From positions 1 to 35,244 of the IMG/VR virus record IMGVR_UViG_3300010413_000100: a DNA stretch of 35,244 nucleotides, one strand, 5' to 3'. The stretch comes from a virus. Positions 1 through 35,244 of the stretch are shown here, piece after piece (position 1 is the first letter of the stretch; each line of letters opens with the position of its first letter). The translations under genes were made by a program, and so were the position numbers. The notes below the pieces were generated by a model. That model was not told the DNA's origin. It searched no databases and saw only the letters and a list, made by a program, of their open reading frames with translations.

Positions 1-144
1 AAAGAGGGGGGGGATATAATCTTAGAGTTAATGTCGATTTGGAATGAAATTTGCAAAACTCTTCCGAAAGCTACAATAAATTCTCCCCCCCGCAATGAAA
101 TTTTGAAAAATTTAATAGGAAATAAAACATTGAAAGACAAAAAA
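1..144. repeat. Terminal direct repeat / circular assembly overlap (identical to 35101-35244)
   Basis: Bases 1-144 match 35101-35244 exactly. The initiator reading frame runs through the junction in frame, giving a 35,100-bp circle. Confidence 0.97.
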
Positions 145-16300: not shown

Positions 16301-16503
16301 GTTTTAAAGATGAAATTGAAATATCACCTATTGCTTATGATGGAAATATTAGAGGTGCTGGTATGATAAAAGGCATTTCTGAAGATTTTTATTATAAGGG
16401 AGATATTTTTGATATAGGTGTTAATCCTATATTTGAATGTGTTATTATAAATATTAGATATAATGAAGATTTAACGGCTACAATTACTGCAAGGGAGGCT
16501 TGA
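13363..16503 (+). CDS. Tail tip / host-specificity protein (gpJ-like) with N-terminal gpI-like beta-grasp domain
   Basis: 1046 aa; VYVNG...YRLKEGD N-terminus; LPYVFG and TRNPASIIRDLL motifs of gpJ-like proteins. Confidence 0.85.
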   Translation: MYIIDEILYFFSEIKRFILRRPRGIVFFREKVLLNEKIKGKRCAGIKLKKLFTKEELKFVYVNGKKKKSRYRLKEGDICEYIKSPEGDFVADVFTIVVGAVLVVAGIATGNPILTQIGAGLIIGGSVSALTKLLFPIKPPSFRISPQEGQGTSQPPEIKGASNTISKSILPYVFGETIQTPFYAQYPYRLIADGSSTNKYRQYFISNYDNVNIYNEKIGETNVGSYSSNFLDINKSYGGSSFIGFDNVKPVPREEQLSVDITQEVFEISNEVYNQNVEGYAQGSIWYGIKPNVGSTITINGVVFTYVVTAGSPTEIAIGTTLLTALNNTVAVLNASTNPLVTPATYSNNGSDTLIIIYDSKGAEGNEFTLDANLPDGYLVTQMTGGVSTYLQYDFILEFTNVDSSNFSDKNFKIEVDILDDTLPTPSEITLSQTYLIEFGDLVLVGGTTYRYIGTKTWTQNISGIIETRFFATTDTRILPEEVEDGLEVEIVEEELTTDLFNDSYTINNPINKYIGVVSEVLETSPDDTTDIDIIIAFPVGLYKQKSDGGRESRIASINVKYKTQSGSFQDIDTATLYVRDINGNKQPLSSSTTTVNGAIVSFSPPDNINQADELFFRTIGMTLTKDKYTIKVSSADLYEKTNFDIGYPVLSEFNFYVDGDVIDETILPNVNQISVEAIAYGSLSGTLRQYNYLAKSELPIWDGTNWSTTAETRNPASIIRDLLTNDLINPRAESIDSIDNDSLVELYNWCETEDYYVDGIISEQFKILELIQTLLSNCQASFTFYNGKYYFVIDNPSKEPIDLFNQHNSFNFKWTPQIGRLTDALRIGFINNDDYSEDEITLYYYDDNVYQIPKSGTSDVDYQIIKTDYQFLTDKSSVIKLGTYALKLIQEKRNVFEFSVNLEALSLKLYDRIYISNTCDLEKESTGLIKELILSGGNLIGFKLYSFIQIEKNSQITIRSLDFTNEIPQIKVFNVLNDGFKDEIEISPIAYDGNIRGAGMIKGISEDFYYKGDIFDIGVNPIFECVIINIRYNEDLTATITAREA

Positions 16504-16508
16504 TTTTT

Positions 16509-17882
16509 ATGGATAAAAAAGCAAAAAAAATAAAAATAAATACTGATTTAATAATAAGAACAATTGATGATAAAAGAGAATTTGATTGTGAAAAATGGGG
16601 ACAAAATAGACGTCTTGAAGGAAAAAAAGCAAGTAAATTTGAATGGGACGACCCCAAAAAAGCTGATGGTGTTCCTATTTTGGTTAGAGAAAAAATTACT
16701 GATGCTGACCCAAATATTAAAATGTCATTTGATTTATTTTCTTTAATTGCTAATACAAAAGCCGGATATTTAGGCGGGGATATTACAAGAGTTTATAGTG
16801 AAAATATTAAAGATGAAGTTAAAAATAAATATAAAGAATTTGATAGAATAAATTATACCAAATCATTTCTAAAAACTTTAATGGAAAATGTATCAGCAAC
16901 AGGAAATACATACACATTAAATTTTTTATATAATGGTGGAGTTAAAATCAAAGAAATCAAAAATTATAATTGTTTAATTATAAAAGATAAAAAAACAGAC
17001 GAGAAATTATATTCTGTAATTTATTCTTATGAAAAAGATGAAGATAAAGATAAAATAATATGGATTTATGATAATACCAATGTATATGAATATACATATA
17101 AAAAATCAAAAAACAAACAAACAAACAATTCTATAATTTTATCTAAACAAAGTCCGCATGGCTTTACTAAAAATCCTGTAATTGAATGGAAAAATAATAA
17201 TAAATGTAGAGGAAATAGTGAAAAAGCTATTACTTTGCTTGATACATGGGATAGATTGGCGAGCGATAATTCTACTGAATCGGCTACTTTCAGACAAGCA
17301 TATTTATTATTAAAAAATATGGGACTTATTGACGAAAAGACCAAAAAAGAAATGGAAAAAACTGGCGTGATAATCGCTGATTCCGAAAATTCTGAAGCAA
17401 AATTTATTACTAAAGATATTAATCCCGAATTTGTTAAGCTTGTTTTAGAATATGTTTGGAATGGAATTTGGGTCGTTTCTTCGAGCATTGACCCAAAAGC
17501 TTTAAGTACTTTAAAAAATGCTACAGCCTTTCAAATAAATCAATTATTTAGACTTCTTGAAAATGATTCTAAAAATACCGAAATGGAATGGAAAAAAAGT
17601 TTACAGGAATTAGATGAACTTTTAAAGAGCTATTGGACTGGACTTGATGTAAATTCTATTTCTGAATATGATACTTTTGAAATAAATTACGAATTCCCAA
17701 GAAATAAGCCAAAAGATGAACTTGCAGATTTAGAAGCTATTTTAAGGGCTGGGGGAAGATTACCACAAAAAGAGATATTTAGACGTTCCGGTTATTCCGA
17801 AGATAAAGCAGAAGAATTGGCGAAATTATCAGAAAAAGAAGCTATGGATAGTTTACCTGATTTAGATAATGAAAATTTATAA
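16509..17882 (+). CDS. Portal protein, SPP1 gp6-like
   Basis: HGFTKNPVIEWKNN...GNSEKAITLLDTWD...SD, AKFITKDIN and FPRNKPKD motifs. The GGAGG SD inside the gpJ 3' end supports ATG 16509. Confidence 0.92.
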   Translation: MDKKAKKIKINTDLIIRTIDDKREFDCEKWGQNRRLEGKKASKFEWDDPKKADGVPILVREKITDADPNIKMSFDLFSLIANTKAGYLGGDITRVYSENIKDEVKNKYKEFDRINYTKSFLKTLMENVSATGNTYTLNFLYNGGVKIKEIKNYNCLIIKDKKTDEKLYSVIYSYEKDEDKDKIIWIYDNTNVYEYTYKKSKNKQTNNSIILSKQSPHGFTKNPVIEWKNNNKCRGNSEKAITLLDTWDRLASDNSTESATFRQAYLLLKNMGLIDEKTKKEMEKTGVIIADSENSEAKFITKDINPEFVKLVLEYVWNGIWVVSSSIDPKALSTLKNATAFQINQLFRLLENDSKNTEMEWKKSLQELDELLKSYWTGLDVNSISEYDTFEINYEFPRNKPKDELADLEAILRAGGRLPQKEIFRRSGYSEDKAEELAKLSEKEAMDSLPDLDNENL

Positions 17883-18736
17883 TGCTAACTCCAAAAAAGA
17901 AAGAACAAAAAGAGATAAGAAAAAAAGAGATAGAAAGAATAGCGTTAATAAATATTTTATCTTTTAAAACTATATCAGAAATAAGAAGATTAATTAGAAA
18001 AAGATTGAAACCTAATATGTCTAAAATTCAAATTAGACAAATTGAAAAAATAATTATTTCAAAATATTTCAATATGTTTAAAAAAATAAAAAAATCAATT
18101 TTAAATTCCTATAATCAATCATCAATTGAAAGCAAATTTTTAATAGAAAATACACTAAAAAGAAAATTAACTTTTTTAAAAATAGATAATTTAAAAAAAT
18201 TTCCAACAACTTATGAATTTAGAATAACTAATCATATTTTAAGTAATAAATCAATTTTAAAAAGAAGTAAAAATTTAGCTTTAAGAACAACAAAAATAAT
18301 TGAAAATTCTTTAGATAAAGGATTTTCTATAGAAAAAACAACAAAATTATTAGATATTGAATTTGGTTTTAGAGACAGACACGGAAAAATCACAAGAAAA
18401 ACTTTAAATCTCTTAAAAGAAGGCAAATTGACGAGAACAAACGGCCATATTTATCGTACTTATAGAATAGCAAGAACAGAAAGTATGCGCATGGCATCTT
18501 TACAACAATATAAAAGATTTGAAGAATTAAAGGCTAATGGTTTTGGCAATGTTAGAATACAAATGATTTCAACATTGGACAATAGAACTCGTCCTCAATC
18601 AATTCAAATGAATAAACAAATAAGTACAAAAAATGGAACTTTTAAGTATCCAAATGGACAGTTTTATAAACATGGATTAGCTCCTGCGAAATGGTCTATT
18701 AATGATAGAGAAACAACTATAATTATTTTCTTATAA
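17882..18736 (+). CDS. Minor head / head morphogenesis protein (SPP1 gp7, Mu F-like)
   Basis: RIARTES and STLDNRTR motifs; follows the portal. Confidence 0.85.
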   Translation: MLTPKKKEQKEIRKKEIERIALINILSFKTISEIRRLIRKRLKPNMSKIQIRQIEKIIISKYFNMFKKIKKSILNSYNQSSIESKFLIENTLKRKLTFLKIDNLKKFPTTYEFRITNHILSNKSILKRSKNLALRTTKIIENSLDKGFSIEKTTKLLDIEFGFRDRHGKITRKTLNLLKEGKLTRTNGHIYRTYRIARTESMRMASLQQYKRFEELKANGFGNVRIQMISTLDNRTRPQSIQMNKQISTKNGTFKYPNGQFYKHGLAPAKWSINDRETTIIIFL

Positions 18737-24680: not shown

Positions 24681-25004
24681 ATGGAACAACTATCAGTAAA
24701 TCAATTATCAAGTGCTATAGTTTTAATAACTTCAATAGGGGCTATTTATGGAGGTTTTTGGGCAATAATTAAATCTGCAATAAAACCAATGCAAATCAAA
24801 ATTGAAAATATTGAAAAGAAAGTTATGCCGACAATAAATGCCATGAAAACTTTTCTGTCAAGTAAAGGAGTGAAAATTCAACCTAAAACTGGGGAATATA
24901 TTGGAGATTTATCAAATTTATATGATGCTGAAGAAGATGAATTTGTTGATAAAATGAGAATTATACTTGATGAATTTCATTCAGATATTGACGATAATAT
25001 TTAA
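24681..25004 (+). CDS. Single-TM membrane protein, holin/antiholin candidate
   Basis: N-terminal hydrophobic helix, acidic C-terminus, located at the start of the lysis region. Confidence 0.5.
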   Translation: MEQLSVNQLSSAIVLITSIGAIYGGFWAIIKSAIKPMQIKIENIEKKVMPTINAMKTFLSSKGVKIQPKTGEYIGDLSNLYDAEEDEFVDKMRIILDEFHSDIDDNI

Positions 25005-25010
25005 AAATTT

Positions 25011-25226
25011 ATGAAAAAATTTAATTTAAAATGGATTAATTTTAAGCTAACTTTAAATTTTACAAACTTAACTGGATTTGTAATTTTAATGTTAAGTTGC
25101 TATAATAATTTCAATAATGCCGGTTTGACTGCAGGTGTTAGTTTAATGAGTATTAGAAAAGTTTGTGAGGTAGGCGGGGAATGGACAAAGAGAAAAAAGA
25201 AGGGTTTAGGACGGATAGATTTGTAA
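25011..25226 (+). CDS. Small membrane protein, holin candidate
   Basis: Two moderately hydrophobic segments and a basic C-terminus. Confidence 0.45.
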   Translation: MKKFNLKWINFKLTLNFTNLTGFVILMLSCYNNFNNAGLTAGVSLMSIRKVCEVGGEWTKRKKKGLGRIDL

Positions 25227-25366
25227 TAGCATTAATTTTAATAATGTTGTTGTTTCATTATGCTACAAATTTGCAAAATCAAAAAATATATATGAAAACC
25301 TTAAATTTACTTGAGTTATCAATTTCAAGTCTAAACGACCATAGAGCAATTGAAAATGGTTATTAA
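25181..25366 (+). CDS. Small single-TM protein
   Basis: FVIALILIMLLFHY helix; overlaps the 25011 ORF. Confidence 0.5.
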   Translation: MDKEKKEGFRTDRFVIALILIMLLFHYATNLQNQKIYMKTLNLLELSISSLNDHRAIENGY

Positions 25367-25454
25367 CAAACAATAAACTTATGAATAAATTAATAACTAC
25401 AATATATAAATTTTTTAAATCATTATTTTGTAAAGATGTGGAGATTAAGTAAAA

Positions 25455-25661
25455 ATGAGTAAAATAAAAGACAAAATTTTTACCTTTTTAGGAATTTATC
25501 TATTAATAGAACTTCTTAAACAATATTTCATAAATAAAGGCAAAAAGTATGAAAGGCAAAAAAACAATAAAAAACAACTTAATTTACTTAAAAAAGCTAA
25601 TTCTATTCGTAAGCGTAAGCCTAATTCTGACAAGTTGCGTAAGAAATACCGGAATAACTGA
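25455..25661 (+). CDS. i-spanin (Rz-like)
   Basis: N-terminal TM followed by a basic helical region; overlapped out of frame by a lipoprotein gene. Confidence 0.7.
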   Translation: MSKIKDKIFTFLGIYLLIELLKQYFINKGKKYERQKNNKKQLNLLKKANSIRKRKPNSDKLRKKYRNN

Positions 25662-25875
25662 TTTTTGCTTATTAGATGAACCAGTAGAAAATACCTGTCC
25701 TTTAAAAAGAGATTTTAGAAGAAATAAAACGTCTATTAGAAGATGTAGAAAAGAAAATAAAGACTTTTCAAAAGAAAGATGTTTAAGAGAATTATATCCA
25801 GCTGTTTTTGATACTGAAAAAACTTGTAAGAATTTAGATAAACACAACAATCTTTATTATGAGTTATGCGAATAA
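25549..25875 (+). CDS. o-spanin (Rz1-like) lipoprotein
   Basis: Signal peptide with lipobox LTSC; DFC...HN..Y..LC pattern; starts inside the i-spanin gene. Confidence 0.75.
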   Translation: MKGKKTIKNNLIYLKKLILFVSVSLILTSCVRNTGITDFCLLDEPVENTCPLKRDFRRNKTSIRRCRKENKDFSKERCLRELYPAVFDTEKTCKNLDKHNNLYYELCE

Positions 25876-25943: not shown

Positions 25944-26369
25944 TTAAAATCTTTCAATAGTTCTTCCATCTTCTTTTATCAAGTAACCTTTTCCATCAAA
26001 AACTATGCATTTTACAGGAGAAGGATTTTCGTCGTCTTCTGTATAAGTGATAACTTTAAACTCTGGCAATTTTATCGCACCTTTTGAGTGTACTGTTTGA
26101 TTTACTTTTTCATATTCAACAGCGTCAAACTCTGGAACTTCATAGGTATGTAATCCTTTGCCTCCAGAAATAGATAGAAATCCATTTTTTCTTTCCCATT
26201 CTTCAATTTTCCAAGCATATTTATTTTTAATAATAAAGGTTGGATTGTTGCAATAAGTTTTAAAAGTATTAATTGTTGTGATTAAAGAGAACTTGCTTTT
26301 ATCTGATATAGGAAAATATCTAAATCCGTTTTTTCCATCTTCAATAGTTTCAATTTTAAAATAACTCAT
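25944..26369 (-). CDS. Hypothetical protein inverted within the lysis region
   Basis: 141-aa ORF with GAGG SD; C-terminal GYLIKEDGRTIERF resembles a small phage protein family of unknown function. Confidence 0.8.
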   Translation of the reverse strand: MSYFKIETIEDGKNGFRYFPISDKSKFSLITTINTFKTYCNNPTFIIKNKYAWKIEEWERKNGFLSISGGKGLHTYEVPEFDAVEYEKVNQTVHSKGAIKLPEFKVITYTEDDENPSPVKCIVFDGKGYLIKEDGRTIERF

Positions 26370-26528: not shown

Positions 26529-26557
26529 ATCTATTATAATATATCATAGATTCCTTG

Positions 26558-26584
26558 ACCTTCTATTTAATAGAGGGTTTTTTT
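26558..26584 (+). terminator. Intrinsic terminator insulating the endolysin promoter
   Basis: ACCTTCTAT/ATAGAGGGT 9-bp stem (one G-U) followed by a T run. Confidence 0.75.
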
Positions 26585-26585
26585 A

Positions 26586-26613
26586 TTGAAAAAAAAAGAA
26601 AATCATTTACAAT
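26586..26613 (+). promoter_or_regulatory. Sigma70-like promoter TTGAAA-N16-TACAAT
   Basis: -35 at 26586-26591 and -10 at 26608-26613. The predicted +1 (~26620) is the first base of a 12-bp helix. Confidence 0.65.
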
Positions 26614-26619
26614 CAAACT

Positions 26620-26930
26620 ATCAGCTTTAATTCGTCTAAGGATTAGGATTTGATTTGTCAAGGTGCAGGGGTGTAAAGACCTGCATTAAAGTTGATTGAG
26701 TTAACAAGATGCAAGAAATAATAATGACACGAAGGACAAGGCTGGCGAGTTGCAAATCAAAAGTCCACTGTATACGAGAAGAGAGGATACTTCGCTTTCG
26801 TAAGTAAGTTCAAAGCCTCTTATTTCTTTCATAGGCTACTAACAAGCCTGCACGATGTTAGATTAATCCGATGTATATTGCGGATACTGGGGCTTAGCCT
26901 TTATGCTCGCAACAGAAAAAGGCGAAAAGA
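26620..26930 (+). ncRNA. Candidate ~310-nt structured RNA / endolysin leader with several pseudoknots (family not recognised)
   Basis: GC-enriched non-coding island. Helices found by eye: 26620-31/26685-96, 26665-69/26680-84, 26649-58/26752-61, 26738-43/26896-901, 26745-50/26905-10, 26761-66/26890-95, 26791-98/26919-26. Confidence 0.65.
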
Positions 26931-26940
26931 AACTATAAAA

Positions 26941-27405
26941 ATGCTTAAAAAATTACTCAAATTGCTAAATAACTTAATTTTTTTCCAAATTTCGTCAAAA
27001 AATGAGGTTCTTTCTCACAACATCAAATATTTTGAACGATTAGAAGGTGTTGACCTTAAGCTTGTAAACATTCTCAAAAAAGTTTCTCTTAATTATCCTA
27101 TAGCCATAATGGCTAACGGAGGAAAGAGAGATTTAAAGACTCAAAGAATGCTTTTTAATGCTGGAAAAACTAAAACGATGAATTCAAAGCATTTAACCGG
27201 AAATGCTGCTGATGTATCCCCTGTAATTAATGGACGAATAAATATAAATAGCGAGTTAGATTTAGCTTATATGTGCGGATATATAAAAGCCGTTGCAGAT
27301 ATGGAATGTGTCCAATTGACACAAGGTTGTAAATGGAAAAGAAAAAGCATTGCTGATAATAAAAAGAATGGATTTTTAGATATGTATCATCAAGAGTTAA
27401 TCTAA
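26941..27405 (+). CDS. Endolysin, peptidase M15 (L-Ala-D-Glu peptidase-like)
   Basis: R..Q, SKHLTGNAAD (SxHxxGxAxD) and DMYHQEL Zn-binding motifs. ATG 26941 is preferred over the TTG 26878 that lies inside the structured RNA. Confidence 0.88.
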   Translation: MLKKLLKLLNNLIFFQISSKNEVLSHNIKYFERLEGVDLKLVNILKKVSLNYPIAIMANGGKRDLKTQRMLFNAGKTKTMNSKHLTGNAADVSPVINGRININSELDLAYMCGYIKAVADMECVQLTQGCKWKRKSIADNKKNGFLDMYHQELI

Positions 27406-31773: not shown

Positions 31774-32393
31774 TTCTCCTCCTTTAATAAATCAATTTTC
31801 TTTTTTGCCTTCTCAATCAATTCATCATAATCGGCTTTTGAATTTAATTTTAAATAATTCCATTTATGTTTATAAACTTCTTTTGTCTTTTGCACTTCTT
31901 CTATTGTTTGAGCGTGTTCAATAGCTTCATCAATTTCAATTTTATTGGCTTCAACATCTTTCATCTTCTCTTTTTTCTTTTCCTTTCCGTGTTTATTTGT
32001 TCCGTCACTATCTTTTGTATCATCAATCAAAAATAAGCCATTAAGCGCGTATTTACGAGCATAACTTGAACTTGAGCCTGTAATCTGTGAGCCGTCTTGT
32101 CCTTTTTTGTTTTCTTCTTCTCTTGCAAAAGCACAAGCGGAAAGTTTTTTATCTTCATTTTTAATATCATAAATTGTTGCAGTTGCTTTTATGTAATACC
32201 TACTACCTATTAATATTAAATCATCAGTTATTACAAGACTTAATCCGTGTTTAGAAAGCAAAGGTTTTAATGCTTCCAAAATATCTTCGCAACTTCTATA
32301 TTTATATTTTCCAAAAGCGTTAAACTGATTTTTAGGTGCTTTTAATTCAGTTTGAATTGCGCCTAATTTTTCGTATATTCCAACTTTGTTCAT
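31770..32393 (-). CDS. erf: ERF-family single-strand annealing protein
   Basis: ELKAPKNQFNAFGKYKYRSCEDILEALKPLL and GSSSSYARKYALNGLFLIDD motifs. Confidence 0.93.
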   Translation of the reverse strand: MNKVGIYEKLGAIQTELKAPKNQFNAFGKYKYRSCEDILEALKPLLSKHGLSLVITDDLILIGSRYYIKATATIYDIKNEDKKLSACAFAREEENKKGQDGSQITGSSSSYARKYALNGLFLIDDTKDSDGTNKHGKEKKKEKMKDVEANKIEIDEAIEHAQTIEEVQKTKEVYKHKWNYLKLNSKADYDELIEKAKKKIDLLKEEK

Positions 32394-32632
32394 TTTTTCT
32401 CCTTATGATTTTTACATTTATAAGTATTCAATTTCTGTTTTAAACGTGGATAAATCCAATGTTTTTTTGCTTCAAATCCCCAACATTTTATTTTAGTTTT
32501 TTTGCATTTTTTACAAATTAGAGAATTAAAAAAGCAATAATCAAATGGTTCTCCTTTTTTTGTCCAAGTTCCTATACTACTTTTAACTAATTTATAATCG
32601 TGATTACAAAATAATGATTTAAAAAATCCCAT
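32390..32632 (-). CDS. Small Cys/His Zn-binding protein (DUF1660-like)
   Basis: LFCNHDY...CKKC pattern. Confidence 0.55.
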   Translation of the reverse strand: MGFFKSLFCNHDYKLVKSSIGTWTKKGEPFDYCFFNSLICKKCKKTKIKCWGFEAKKHWIYPRLKQKLNTYKCKNHKEKK

Positions 32633-32781: not shown

Positions 32782-33016
32782 TTTTCTCCTTTTCCTTATC
32801 AATTTTTTTACTTAATTCCGTTTTAATAAAATCCCATTCGCAGTTTTTATCTCTAAACCATAACAAGCCTGTTTCTAAATTAAGCCTTTGGTCGTAGCGA
32901 TTATATGCGAGGTCGTGTCCTAATTTTATTTCTTTAATTACTTTTTTATCATATTTTATAGCCGATTTTTTAATATAAACTTCACCATTTATCTCTATTT
33001 CATTTTTTTTATTCAT
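32762..33016 (-). CDS. Hypothetical protein, first gene of the leftward operon
   Basis: 84-aa ORF with NEIEINGEVYIKKS motif. Confidence 0.7.
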   Translation of the reverse strand: MNKKNEIEINGEVYIKKSAIKYDKKVIKEIKLGHDLAYNRYDQRLNLETGLLWFRDKNCEWDFIKTELSKKIDKEKEKNVRNNK

Positions 33017-33058
33017 TATATACCTTTTTTATATTAATAATTAATTCAAACTAACACA

Positions 33059-33086
33059 ATTATACATCATAAATACAAATAAGCAA
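33059..33086 (-). promoter_or_regulatory. Leftward promoter TTGCTT-N16-TATAAT
   Basis: -35 at 33081-33086 and -10 at 33059-33064, upstream of the recombination operon. Confidence 0.6.
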
Positions 33087-33220
33087 ATAGCCTATAAATA
33101 AAGAATGGACATAAATCATAGTTTTATTTTGATACAACTTATCTGGCTAGGCACAATTAACGTTATTCGAACTATGAAAGTGAATCTTGTAGGGGGAACT
33201 GGTGGAATTTACTGATTAAC

Positions 33221-33253
33221 AAAAAAAGTATCTACAAATTAATGTAGATACTT
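33221..33253 (-). terminator. Intrinsic terminator (minus strand)
   Basis: Perfect 11-bp stem AAGTATCTACA/TGTAGATACTT with an A7 run on its left, read as a U tract on the minus strand. Confidence 0.8.
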
Positions 33254-33322
33254 AAACCAATAATAAATAATATTATTATTAATAAAAACACTATGAAATT
33301 TAAAAAAAATATTGTTAATCTC

Positions 33323-33351
33323 ATTATGAACTTGTAAATCCTAATAGTCAA
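33323..33351 (-). promoter_or_regulatory. Leftward promoter TTGACT-N17-CATAAT
   Basis: -35 at 33346-33351 and -10 at 33323-33328. Confidence 0.5.
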
Positions 33352-33413
33352 GCTAATTTATATCGTCTCAAAATAAAACAGCATTAATCATAAACACTTA
33401 TAAATAAAGCAAG

Positions 33414-33442
33414 TTGACAAATCAGAAATATAATGTAATAAT
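33414..33442 (+). promoter_or_regulatory. Rightward promoter candidate (TTGACA, imperfect -10)
   Basis: TTGACA 33414-33419 with TAATAA/AATAAT 16-17 nt downstream; divergent from the leftward promoters. Confidence 0.45.
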
Positions 33443-33528
33443 TTGTTTACTTGATTAAAATTTAACTTGATTATTTATACAGATAACATTGAGTTATATA
33501 AATAATTAAACCATTTAATTAGGTTCAC

Positions 33529-33655
33529 GTGGGGGAAGAGGCAATAATTTCTGTTAATTGTTGCATTACCACTCTCTCCCCACTCATTCAACCAACCGTA
33601 TGGGCGGAGAGCAATGTTTTAAAGCGTTGTTCTCCAAGAGGGGAGAAATCCCCTC
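33529..33655 (+). ncRNA. Candidate structured leader RNA (three helical domains)
   Basis: Helices 33529-40/33572-83, 33541-49/33556-64, 33606-16/33625-35 and a GAAA-tetraloop hairpin 33638-44/33649-55; multiple G-U pairs. Confidence 0.7.
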
Positions 33656-33673
33656 ATAACAAAGGGAGGAATT

Positions 33674-33856
33674 ATGTTAGTGTATTTAGAAAATGGAAGT
33701 GAAAAGAGATTTACTTCTTATAACTCAAGACAATCCTTAAGCGATTTATTAGATGACATTAAAATAATCTTTGCTAATTTGACTAATGATTTAAGAGTCA
33801 AATTGCCTAATCAAAAATGGAAAAGTTTTGAGGAATTAAACAATAAAAAAGGATAA
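33674..33856 (+). CDS. Hypothetical early protein
   Basis: 60 aa, strong GGGAGG SD directly after the structured leader. Confidence 0.75.
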   Translation: MLVYLENGSEKRFTSYNSRQSLSDLLDDIKIIFANLTNDLRVKLPNQKWKSFEELNNKKG

Positions 33857-34608: not shown

Positions 34609-34636
34609 TTGACAAATTAAAAATCTGTTCTAATAT
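34609..34636 (+). promoter_or_regulatory. Sigma70-like promoter TTGACA-N16-TAATAT for the initiator gene
   Basis: TTGACA 34609-34614 and TAATAT 34631-34636; same hexamers and spacing as the 1335 promoter. Confidence 0.6.
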
Positions 34637-34682
34637 GAAATAAAGGGAAGATAAATTTTATTTTCCATTACATCTTTATTTT

Positions 34683-34727
34683 GTAGAATTAAAGACTAGT
34701 TCCTTTAATTCTACGCCCTTGAACTAG
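34683..34727 (+). promoter_or_regulatory. H-type pseudoknot / hairpin switch in the initiator 5' leader
   Basis: Perfect 12-bp stem 34683-94/34703-14; its loop CTAGTTC (34696-702) is complementary to GAACTAG (34721-27). Confidence 0.65.
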
Positions 34728-34737
34728 ATTTTGGGAT

Positions 34738-35244
34738 ATGACAAAAAAAAATAGCTTTATATTACATTTAGACAGCTTAGAAATTTTGGAAAAAATGACC
34801 GATGAACAAGCTGGAAAATTTATAAAATCAATTTATCAATTCAAAAAAAATGGTACGCTTTCTAATTTGGATTTTGGATTAGAAATGGCAATTGCTCCTT
34901 TCGTAAATCAGTTTAAAAGAGATGATGAAAAATATAAAAAGATTTGCGAACGCAATAAAATCAATGGTTCTCAAGGAGGAAGACCAAAAAACCCAAATAA
35001 CCCAGTGGGTTTTTTGGAAACCCAACAAAACCCAACAAAACCCAAAAAACCCGATAATGATAATGATAATGATAATGATAATGATAATGATAATGATATT
35101 AAAGAGGGGGGGGATATAATCTTAGAGTTAATGTCGATTTGGAATGAAATTTGCAAAACTCTTCCGAAAGCTACAATAAATTCTCCCCCCCGCAATGAAA
35201 TTTTGAAAAATTTAATAGGAAATAAAACATTGAAAGACAAAAAA
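34738..35244 (+). CDS. Replication initiator, DUF6291-type N-terminus (221 aa across the junction to 303; not in ORF track)
   Basis: MTKKNSFILHLDSLEILEKMTDEQAGKFIKSIY...RDDEKYKKICERNKINGSQGGRPK...(DN)7 matches the DUF6291/GGRP initiator architecture; no stop before the window end. Confidence 0.85.
   Translation, partial: MTKKNSFILHLDSLEILEKMTDEQAGKFIKSIYQFKKNGTLSNLDFGLEMAIAPFVNQFKRDDEKYKKICERNKINGSQGGRPKNPNNPVGFLETQQNPTKPKKPDNDNDNDNDNDNDNDIKEGGDIILELMSIWNEICKTLPKATINSPPRNEILKNLIGNKTLKDKK
34990..35052 (+). repeat. AACCC iteron-like repeats, candidate replication origin inside the initiator gene
   Basis: Six AACCC copies (34990, 34999, 35019, 35029, 35039, 35048), three of them spaced at 10-bp intervals, plus one inverted GGGTT. 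Confidence 0.6.
35053..35094 (+). repeat. (GATAAT)7 microsatellite encoding the DN linker
   Basis: Seven perfect hexamer copies followed by GATATT. Confidence 0.95.
35101..35244. repeat. Terminal direct repeat copy (identical to 1-144)
   Basis: Direct comparison of both ends. Confidence 0.97.

What the first reader, a model, noticed from the sequence alone, without database searches (positions are those of the whole stretch)
26620..26940. Candidate novel ~310-nt multi-pseudoknot RNA transcribed from its own promoter directly upstream of the endolysin
Seen: a GC-enriched gene-free island, insulated by a terminator, whose predicted +1 is the first base of a 12-bp helix (26620-31/26685-96) enclosing a GCAGG/CCUGC hairpin. 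The enclosed loop (UUUGAUUUGU, 26649-58) pairs 10 bp with GCAAAUCAAA (26752-61), forming a pseudoknot. The 3' domain has crossing helices AAGGCU/AGCCUU, GCGAGU/GCUCGC and AAGUCC/GGGCUU, plus local hairpins AGAGG/CCUCU, AGGCU/AGCCU and AUCCG/CGGAU. UUCGCUUU (26791-98) pairs with AAGGCGAA (26919-26), 15 nt before the lysin ATG, in competition with a local UACGA-GAAG/CUUC-UCGUA hairpin. Several G-U pairs argue for RNA-level selection, and two AGGCU plus three AGCCU segments allow alternative folds. Inference: an undescribed large structured ncRNA, ribozyme or translational switch that gates lysis. I could not assign it to tRNA, tmRNA, RNase P, group I/II introns or small ribozymes.
Basis: partly seen in the sequence, partly recalled or inferred. 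Interest (0 to 1): 0.85.

Follow-up and report, generated by a model that had tools for sequence, protein, structure and literature searches.

The report
Orphan pseudoknotted RNA before phage endolysin
The gene-free 310 bases in front of this uncultured phage's cell-wall-cutting enzyme gene probably encode an intricately folded RNA that fits no catalogued family and loosely resembles the guide-RNA scaffold of Cas9's transposon ancestors, but no relative could be found, so its fold and its job remain unproven.

Summary
The stretch 26620-26926 is non-coding, 40% GC in a 27% GC phage, and sits between a terminator/promoter and an M15C endolysin. Ordinary folding is no better than shuffles (z -0.2). 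With pseudoknots allowed it beats 176 of 177 shuffles, and the minus strand scores below the shuffle mean. I put a real structured RNA at about 0.75. Rfam has no match and no homologue was found in any collection, so covariation could not be tested. The lysin relatives I read have no such leader. New lead: five motifs match IscB/IsrB omega (HEARO) RNAs in order, including the pseudoknot ending just before the start codon (3/1000 shuffles, partly post hoc). However, three covariance models and an HMM do not score it, and no IscB/IsrB is present. Best reading: a cis leader tuning endolysin translation, possibly a domesticated omega RNA. This scan earlier reported uncatalogued 240-310-nt pseudoknotted leaders before SleB lysins on other DNA; I could not obtain them to test kinship.

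The parts
26557..26585 (+). intrinsic-terminator-like hairpin and T run insulating the unit from upstream transcription
   Evidence: 10-bp stem, T tail
26586..26613 (+). sigma-70-like promoter, 16-nt spacer; predicted +1 near 26620
   Evidence: 10/12 consensus match; not above chance frequency
26620..26926 (+). candidate structured RNA, about 307 nt, 40% GC, up to four pseudoknots
26620..26696 (+). 5' domain: closing helix 26620-25(31)/26691(85)-96, hairpin 26626-33/26640-47, hairpin 26663-69/26680-86; local z -2.6; resembles the omega-RNA 5' stem
26649..26761 (+). PK1: 10-bp long-range pairing 26649-58/26752-61
26738..26910 (+). crossing helices A 26738-43/26896-901 and B 26745-50/26905-10, with nested helix C 26762-66/26890-94
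26776..26826 (+). stem D (26781-86/26816-21, 26776-79/26823-26) presenting loop 26791-98; alternative local hairpin 26773-79/26796-802; motif resembles the omega-RNA nexus hairpin
26832..26861 (+). PK4: compact H-type pseudoknot (6-bp stem 1, 1-nt loop 1, 6-bp stem 2, 5-nt loop 3)
   Evidence: 2 of 1000 shuffles; only one other in the whole phage
26866..26885 (+). hairpin F 26866-70/26881-85
   Evidence: low probability in the nested ensemble (0.07)
26919..26926 (+). 3' strand of PK3 (pairs 26791-98), ending 14 nt before the lysin ATG
26941..27405 (+). M15C L-Ala-D-Glu peptidase endolysin, 154 aa, A-rich leader without SD
   Evidence: phrog_465 E 7.7e-19; ChiX 5OPZ, 8Q2G, 2MXZ; conserved SKH...D...H; ATG start supported by P0002 N-terminus
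25944..26369 (-). divergently transcribed 141-aa orphan ORF sharing the intergenic region
   Evidence: no homologue

Best explanation
A sigma-70-type promoter behind a terminator starts a transcript at about 26620 that folds into a compact multi-pseudoknot RNA and runs on into the endolysin gene (no terminator lies between them). The RNA works in cis as the 5' leader of the lysin mRNA: the base-paired 5' end and compact fold stabilise the message, and the switch between pseudoknot 26791-98/26919-26 and the local hairpin 26773-79/26796-802 sets how much of the SD-less, A-rich ribosome landing site is free, so tuning lysin output separately from the holin/spanin genes. The scaffold may descend from an IS200/IS605 omega RNA that lost its nuclease gene and guide (about 0.3 on its own). 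Shown: sequence, helices, non-random pseudoknot content, gene context. Inferred: transcription, the fold, the switch, any effect on translation, the ancestry.
For: GC island without ORF; pseudoknot-aware packing z -3, strand-specific; H-type pseudoknot 2/1000; 12 mutually compatible helices pairing 158 of 307 nt with 11 G-U pairs; terminator then promoter then paired first base; no terminator between RNA and ATG; the lysin is separated from the holin/spanin-like ORFs (24681-25875) by an antisense ORF and so needs its own control. Precedent: omega RNAs end with a pseudoknot shortly before a start codon (PMC9581776).
Against: No homologue, so no covariation (126/127). Nested MFE z -0.22. Nearest lysin (46% identity) has only about 100 nt of AT-rich spacer upstream; none of 80 viral M15C loci resembles the RNA and the 12 upstream regions I read are coding. 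No SD inside the pseudoknot; 26927-40 is 75% unpaired in the nested ensemble. 310 nt is more structure than a simple translational switch needs.
Confidence: 0.35

Rival explanations
1. A stand-alone large structured RNA of the GOLLD/ROOL/raiA sort, processed away from the lysin mRNA and acting in trans or as an RNA-only assembly; the lysin is just the next gene.
For: Size, four pseudoknots, own promoter and paired 5' end; such RNAs occur in phages with unknown function (PMC12286853); lysin relatives lack the RNA.
Against: No terminator at the 3' end; structure ends 14 nt from the ATG; no tRNA cluster nearby; no Rfam match.
Confidence: 0.2
2. An orphan, diverged IscB/IsrB omega RNA: a transposon remnant whose nuclease gene was lost, either neutral or used in trans by a host IscB/IsrB, with no role in lysis.
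For: Five anchor motifs from ten genuine omega RNAs chain collinearly at 26620, 26666, 26691, 26785, 26807: 32.0 bits vs shuffles 19.1 +/- 3.9, 3/1000, best of 416 phage windows, with a 5-bp nexus-type pairing downstream. Loop 26791-96 and 3' strand 26921-26 nearly equal the Rfam HEARO consensus printed. Two long-range pseudoknots in the order of IsrB group A (PMC9581776). Standalone omega RNAs are known (same paper).
Against: HEARO model gives no hit although it finds 5 of 8 IsrB loci at 23-55 bits; own IscB and IsrB models give no hit; HMM 0.4 bit, 499/1894 shuffles as good; chain score below every leave-one-out true RNA (35.5-53) and only 1.3 bits above the next phage window; blocks and gaps were chosen knowing the query; about 100 nt longer than HEARO; no RRXRR/PLMP protein in the genome bin; no right-end hairpin and no target for a putative guide; the predicted promoter leaves no guide.
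Confidence: 0.2
3. Not a functional RNA: a GC-richer piece of foreign or decayed DNA in which short helices were picked out by eye.
For: MFE and greedy tests at chance; individual helices are 5-8 bp with many alternatives; nothing comparative supports it.
Against: Pseudoknot-aware z -3 on one strand only; H-type pseudoknot 2/1000; no long ORF remnant; structure starts at the predicted +1 and ends at the lysin leader.
Confidence: 0.2
4. A catalytic RNA (self-cleaving or RNase P-like) that processes the lysin mRNA.
For: Dense pseudoknots; 26760-66/26890-96 recalls the RNase P P4 words (compare the bin's own RNase P).
Against: No Rfam ribozyme, intron or RNase P match at E up to 10; the conserved GAGGA before P4 and the helix order of RNase P are missing (sequence, own knowledge).
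Confidence: 0.05

Closest known systems
Omega RNA of IscB/IsrB (HEARO, Rfam RF02033; DtIsrB omega RNA, Hirano et al. 2022, PMC9581776)
   Same: 5' closing helix with similar words enclosing hairpins; nexus-like hairpin motif whose loop pairs with the 3' end just before a start codon; a second pseudoknot from the 5' domain; about 300 nt like IsrB omega RNAs.
   Different: No covariance-model or HMM hit; extra helices A, B and PK4; followed by an endolysin, not iscB/isrB; no guide, right end or nuclease.
GOLLD, ROOL, OLE and raiA large ornate RNAs (PMC12286853)
   Same: Large, pseudoknot-rich (ROOL, raiA), phage-borne (GOLLD, ROOL), function unknown.
   Different: No Rfam match; shorter than GOLLD/ROOL; no tRNA island; fused to a downstream gene.
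Uncatalogued 240-310-nt leaders before SleB-type endolysins (earlier notes of this scan, e.g. e1-5375333, e1-5696736) and the Goslar gp098 leader
   Same: Similar size, pseudoknots, position directly before a phage wall hydrolase.
   Different: Different enzyme (M15C), small 35-kb siphophage-like genome rather than giant phages; no sequence likeness by eye to the Goslar leader and none to the upstream regions of about 70 viral SleB loci fetched with a marine query, which lacked the leader, so the family itself was not tested.
T4 gene e inhibitory leader and lambda S holin leader; T2/T4 gene 32 leader pseudoknot (own knowledge)
   Same: RNA structure in the leader of a phage lysis gene; PK4 has the 1-nt loop 1 / 6-bp stem 2 geometry of the gene 32 pseudoknot.
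   Different: Those are small elements that cover or flank an SD; here there is no SD and the structure is about 310 nt.

Membership tests
Omega RNA / HEARO (RF02033) | Scores against the HEARO covariance model | tested here: not met
   No hit at E up to 10 on the region or its halves or genome; control finds 5 of 8 IsrB and 5 of 5 other loci
Omega RNA / HEARO (RF02033) | Scores against models of IscB-type and IsrB group-A omega RNAs | tested here: not met
   Models R1 and R2, filters off: no hit on the RNA; HMM at shuffle level. Models are small (11 and 3 sequences)
Omega RNA / HEARO (RF02033) | Collinear 5'-stem and nexus motifs with nexus pseudoknot | tested here: inconclusive
   32.0 bits, 3/1000 shuffles, below true members 35.5-53; partly post hoc
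Omega RNA / HEARO (RF02033) | iscB/isrB gene downstream or in the genome | tested here: not met
   Downstream gene is an M15C peptidase; PF14239 absent from the bin; the true bacterial host is unknown
Omega RNA / HEARO (RF02033) | 5' guide and IS200/IS605 right-end hairpin | tested here: not met
   Predicted +1 is at the scaffold start; no convincing target of the upstream 16-20 nt and no right-end hairpin (the C257 look-alike is chance)
Omega RNA / HEARO (RF02033) | Binds IscB/IsrB and guides nicking or cleavage | not testable with these tools
   needs reconstitution
GOLLD / ROOL / OLE / raiA and other Rfam families (tmRNA, RNase P, group I/II introns, riboswitches, small ribozymes) | Scores against the family model | tested here: not met
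   ARAGORN finds no tRNA or tmRNA
Scan's uncatalogued SleB-endolysin leader family | Aligns to the family's sequence and structure | not tested
   Members could not be fetched; the loci I retrieved lacked the leader
Scan's uncatalogued SleB-endolysin leader family | Lies before a SleB (PF07486) hydrolase | tested here: not met
   Gene is M15C
Conserved structured RNA in general | Covariation among homologues | tested here: inconclusive
   No homologue found in any collection
M15C peptidoglycan endopeptidase (T5 endolysin / ChiX type) | Homology to solved members and zinc-binding motif | tested here: met

The most novel reading that the evidence does not exclude
A phage has domesticated the omega-RNA scaffold of a Cas9-ancestor transposon, stripped of guide and nuclease and elaborated with extra pseudoknots, as the switchable leader that times endolysin synthesis.
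Probability: 0.13. Interest if true: 0.8.

Novelty: new variant of a known kind. Interest (0 to 1): 0.5.

Why it matters
Large pseudoknotted phage RNAs are rare and mostly without known function. If real, this one is either a new structural class or a repurposed omega RNA, and its place before an SD-less endolysin makes the function directly testable with a reporter. With the earlier SleB-leader notes it would suggest that unrelated phages repeatedly put large folded RNAs before wall hydrolases, an unrecognised layer of lysis control. As a singleton without covariation or expression data it is a lead, not a discovery.

Tried and rejected
Homologue hunts, all negative or chance: blastn against phages and plasmids; 100 related genomes; pattern scans of viral contigs, metagenomes (69/70) and GTDB genomes (126/127); earlier findings by place and sequence. 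The phage is an orphan: neighbouring proteins are singletons, terminase and portal about 25-33% to anything cultured. M15C lysin loci have no such leader. Attempt to reach the SleB leader family through marine SleB proteins failed. A regular-expression descriptor that picked only this locus in 4.5 Mb was discarded as overfitted, since it matched 0 of 13 true omega RNAs. A 16-nt look-alike in contig C257 is chance inside a gene. RNase P-like reading rejected. Translation as a lysin N-terminal extension from TTG 26878 is unlikely: the closest homologue starts at the equivalent of ATG 26941. The 2021 paper defining omega RNAs was not found under the id I tried.

Full report
Setting. The window is one whole contig with a 144-nt terminal direct repeat, i.e. 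a complete circular 35.1-kb tailed-phage genome of 27% GC, with terminase, tape measure, tail fibre J, portal, Erf and exonuclease genes. It is binned with an archaeal genome, but it encodes a peptidoglycan endopeptidase, so the true host is probably a bacterium and the binning wrong (inference). The lysin 26941-27405 is an M15C L-Ala-D-Glu peptidase. The same 571-nt gap between the 141-aa ORF and the lysin appears in two Logan assemblies, so it is not a one-off assembly error. The phage has no close relative: its proteins are singletons and terminase and portal are at most 33% identical to cultured phages.

Observation. A terminator and a 10/12 sigma-70 promoter precede 26620, though promoter matches are not enriched in this AT-rich DNA. 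The stretch is 40% GC, matched by only 1 of 699 windows of the phage, and holds no internal ORF of 45 aa or more. Nested folding is at chance (z -0.22), as is a greedy stem set. The 5' 77 nt alone fold better than shuffles (z -2.6). When the best set of non-overlapping helices is chosen with crossings allowed, the plus strand scores -99.9 against -86.6 +/- 4.4 (1 of 177 shuffles), and the minus strand -80.5. The hairpin 26832-37/26845-50 has a loop that pairs 6 bp with 26856-61 in classic H-type geometry; a generic descriptor finds this in 2 of 1000 shuffles and at only one other place in the phage. Twelve helices can form together, pairing 158 of 307 nt with 11 G-U pairs (a thirteenth, 4-bp helix was mis-indexed by one base in that script and is left out of the count). 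I tried several statistics and noticed the pseudoknot before testing it, so the p-values are optimistic. Together with the GC island I put a real structured RNA at about 0.75.

Search for relatives. Rfam has no match at gathering level and none over the RNA other than E 5-9 snoRNA noise. No homologue was found by blastn in phages, plasmids or related genomes, nor by pattern scans of viral contigs, metagenomes and GTDB genomes, whose hits were all chance on inspection (126/127). The closest lysin (46%) has about 100 nt of AT-rich spacer upstream. None of 80 viral M15C loci resembles the RNA, and the 12 upstream regions I read are coding. So the RNA is not a general M15 leader, and covariation, the decisive test, could not be run. 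Earlier notes of this scan describe an uncatalogued family of 240-310-nt pseudoknotted leaders before SleB hydrolases of giant phages. I could not fetch its members; the Goslar leader shows no likeness by eye. Kinship is open.

The omega-RNA lead. I fetched IscB and IsrB loci and read the HEARO consensus. The candidate's closing helix, first hairpin loop, the motif at 26785-96, the word at 26807-11 and the 3' strand at 26921-26 follow the consensus in order, and in both cases the loop of that hairpin pairs with the 3' end shortly before a start codon. IsrB omega RNAs are about 300 nt with an adaptor and a nexus pseudoknot, and standalone omega RNAs exist (PMC9581776). A chain of five weight matrices from ten true omega RNAs scores the candidate 32.0 bits, reached by 3 of 1000 shuffles and best of 416 phage windows, but below every true member (35.5-53) and only just above the next window (30.7); blocks and spacings were chosen knowing the query. 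Against it: the HEARO model, which finds 5 of 8 IsrB loci, and my IscB and IsrB models do not score it; an HMM is at shuffle level; there is no PLMP/RRXRR protein in the bin, no right-end hairpin and no target for a guide; the promoter would start the RNA at the scaffold, leaving no guide. It therefore is not filed as an omega RNA; it may descend from one (about 0.3).

How it most likely works. No terminator separates the RNA from the lysin, which lies apart from the holin/spanin-like ORFs at 24681-25875 behind an antisense ORF (their identity is inferred from hydrophobic and lipobox-like sequence, no family hit). The simplest reading is one transcript whose folded 5' part protects the message and whose last pseudoknot, competing with hairpin 26773-79/26796-802, modulates ribosome loading. 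The lysin has an A-rich leader with no SD, like many genes of this phage; the pseudoknot ends 14 nt before the ATG, at the upstream edge of a ribosome footprint (own knowledge), and 26927-40 is mostly unpaired, so any effect is likely a tuning, not an on/off gate. I give this 0.35, a stand-alone ornate RNA 0.2, an orphan omega RNA without a lysis role 0.2, no functional RNA 0.2, a ribozyme 0.05.

Verdict. Observation confirmed; interpretation partly supported. Probably a real, uncatalogued multi-pseudoknot phage RNA, known from one genome only. Novelty: new variant of a known kind (large structured phage RNA or lysis-gene leader, omega-like). Interest 0.5.

Noticed in passing
window 33510-33675: Strongly folded GC-rich leader (z -5.95, 0/150 shuffles) with several long hairpins upstream of the 60-aa ORF at 33674, beside the divergent control region 33016-33674; no Rfam hit at gathering level.
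   Followed up: partly
window 34609-34720: Promoter-like site followed by a 12-bp hairpin (34683-34715) whose loop can pair about 7 bp with 34722-28: the only other H-type pseudoknot in the phage, upstream of a probable replication gene.
   Followed up: partly
window 25410-25433 and 32604-32627: Perfect 24-nt inverted repeat; one copy is the start of the 80-aa minus-strand ORF 32390-32632, the other lies between lysis-region ORFs.
   Followed up: no
window 1-144 and 35101-35244: Terminal direct repeat: complete circular phage genome, placed in an archaeal bin although it encodes a peptidoglycan hydrolase; probable mis-binning.
   Followed up: partly
window 16500-18736: Unusual gene order: portal and head-morphogenesis genes lie after the tape measure and central tail fibre genes.
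   Followed up: no
window 25455-25875: Overlapping 68-aa and 108-aa ORFs, the second with a lipobox-like cysteine: Rz/Rz1 spanin-like pair, suggesting a host with an outer membrane (inference; no family hit).
   Followed up: no
L408-L425 (genomes of the bin's archaeal phylum): IscB and one IsrB (L420) with HEARO omega RNAs occur in 7 of 401 of these archaeal genomes above the Pfam cut-off.
   Followed up: partly
L427:195-330: Microcystis phage MaMV-DC isrB locus has several tandem copies of the omega-RNA 5' end, like a small CRISPR-type array.
   Followed up: no
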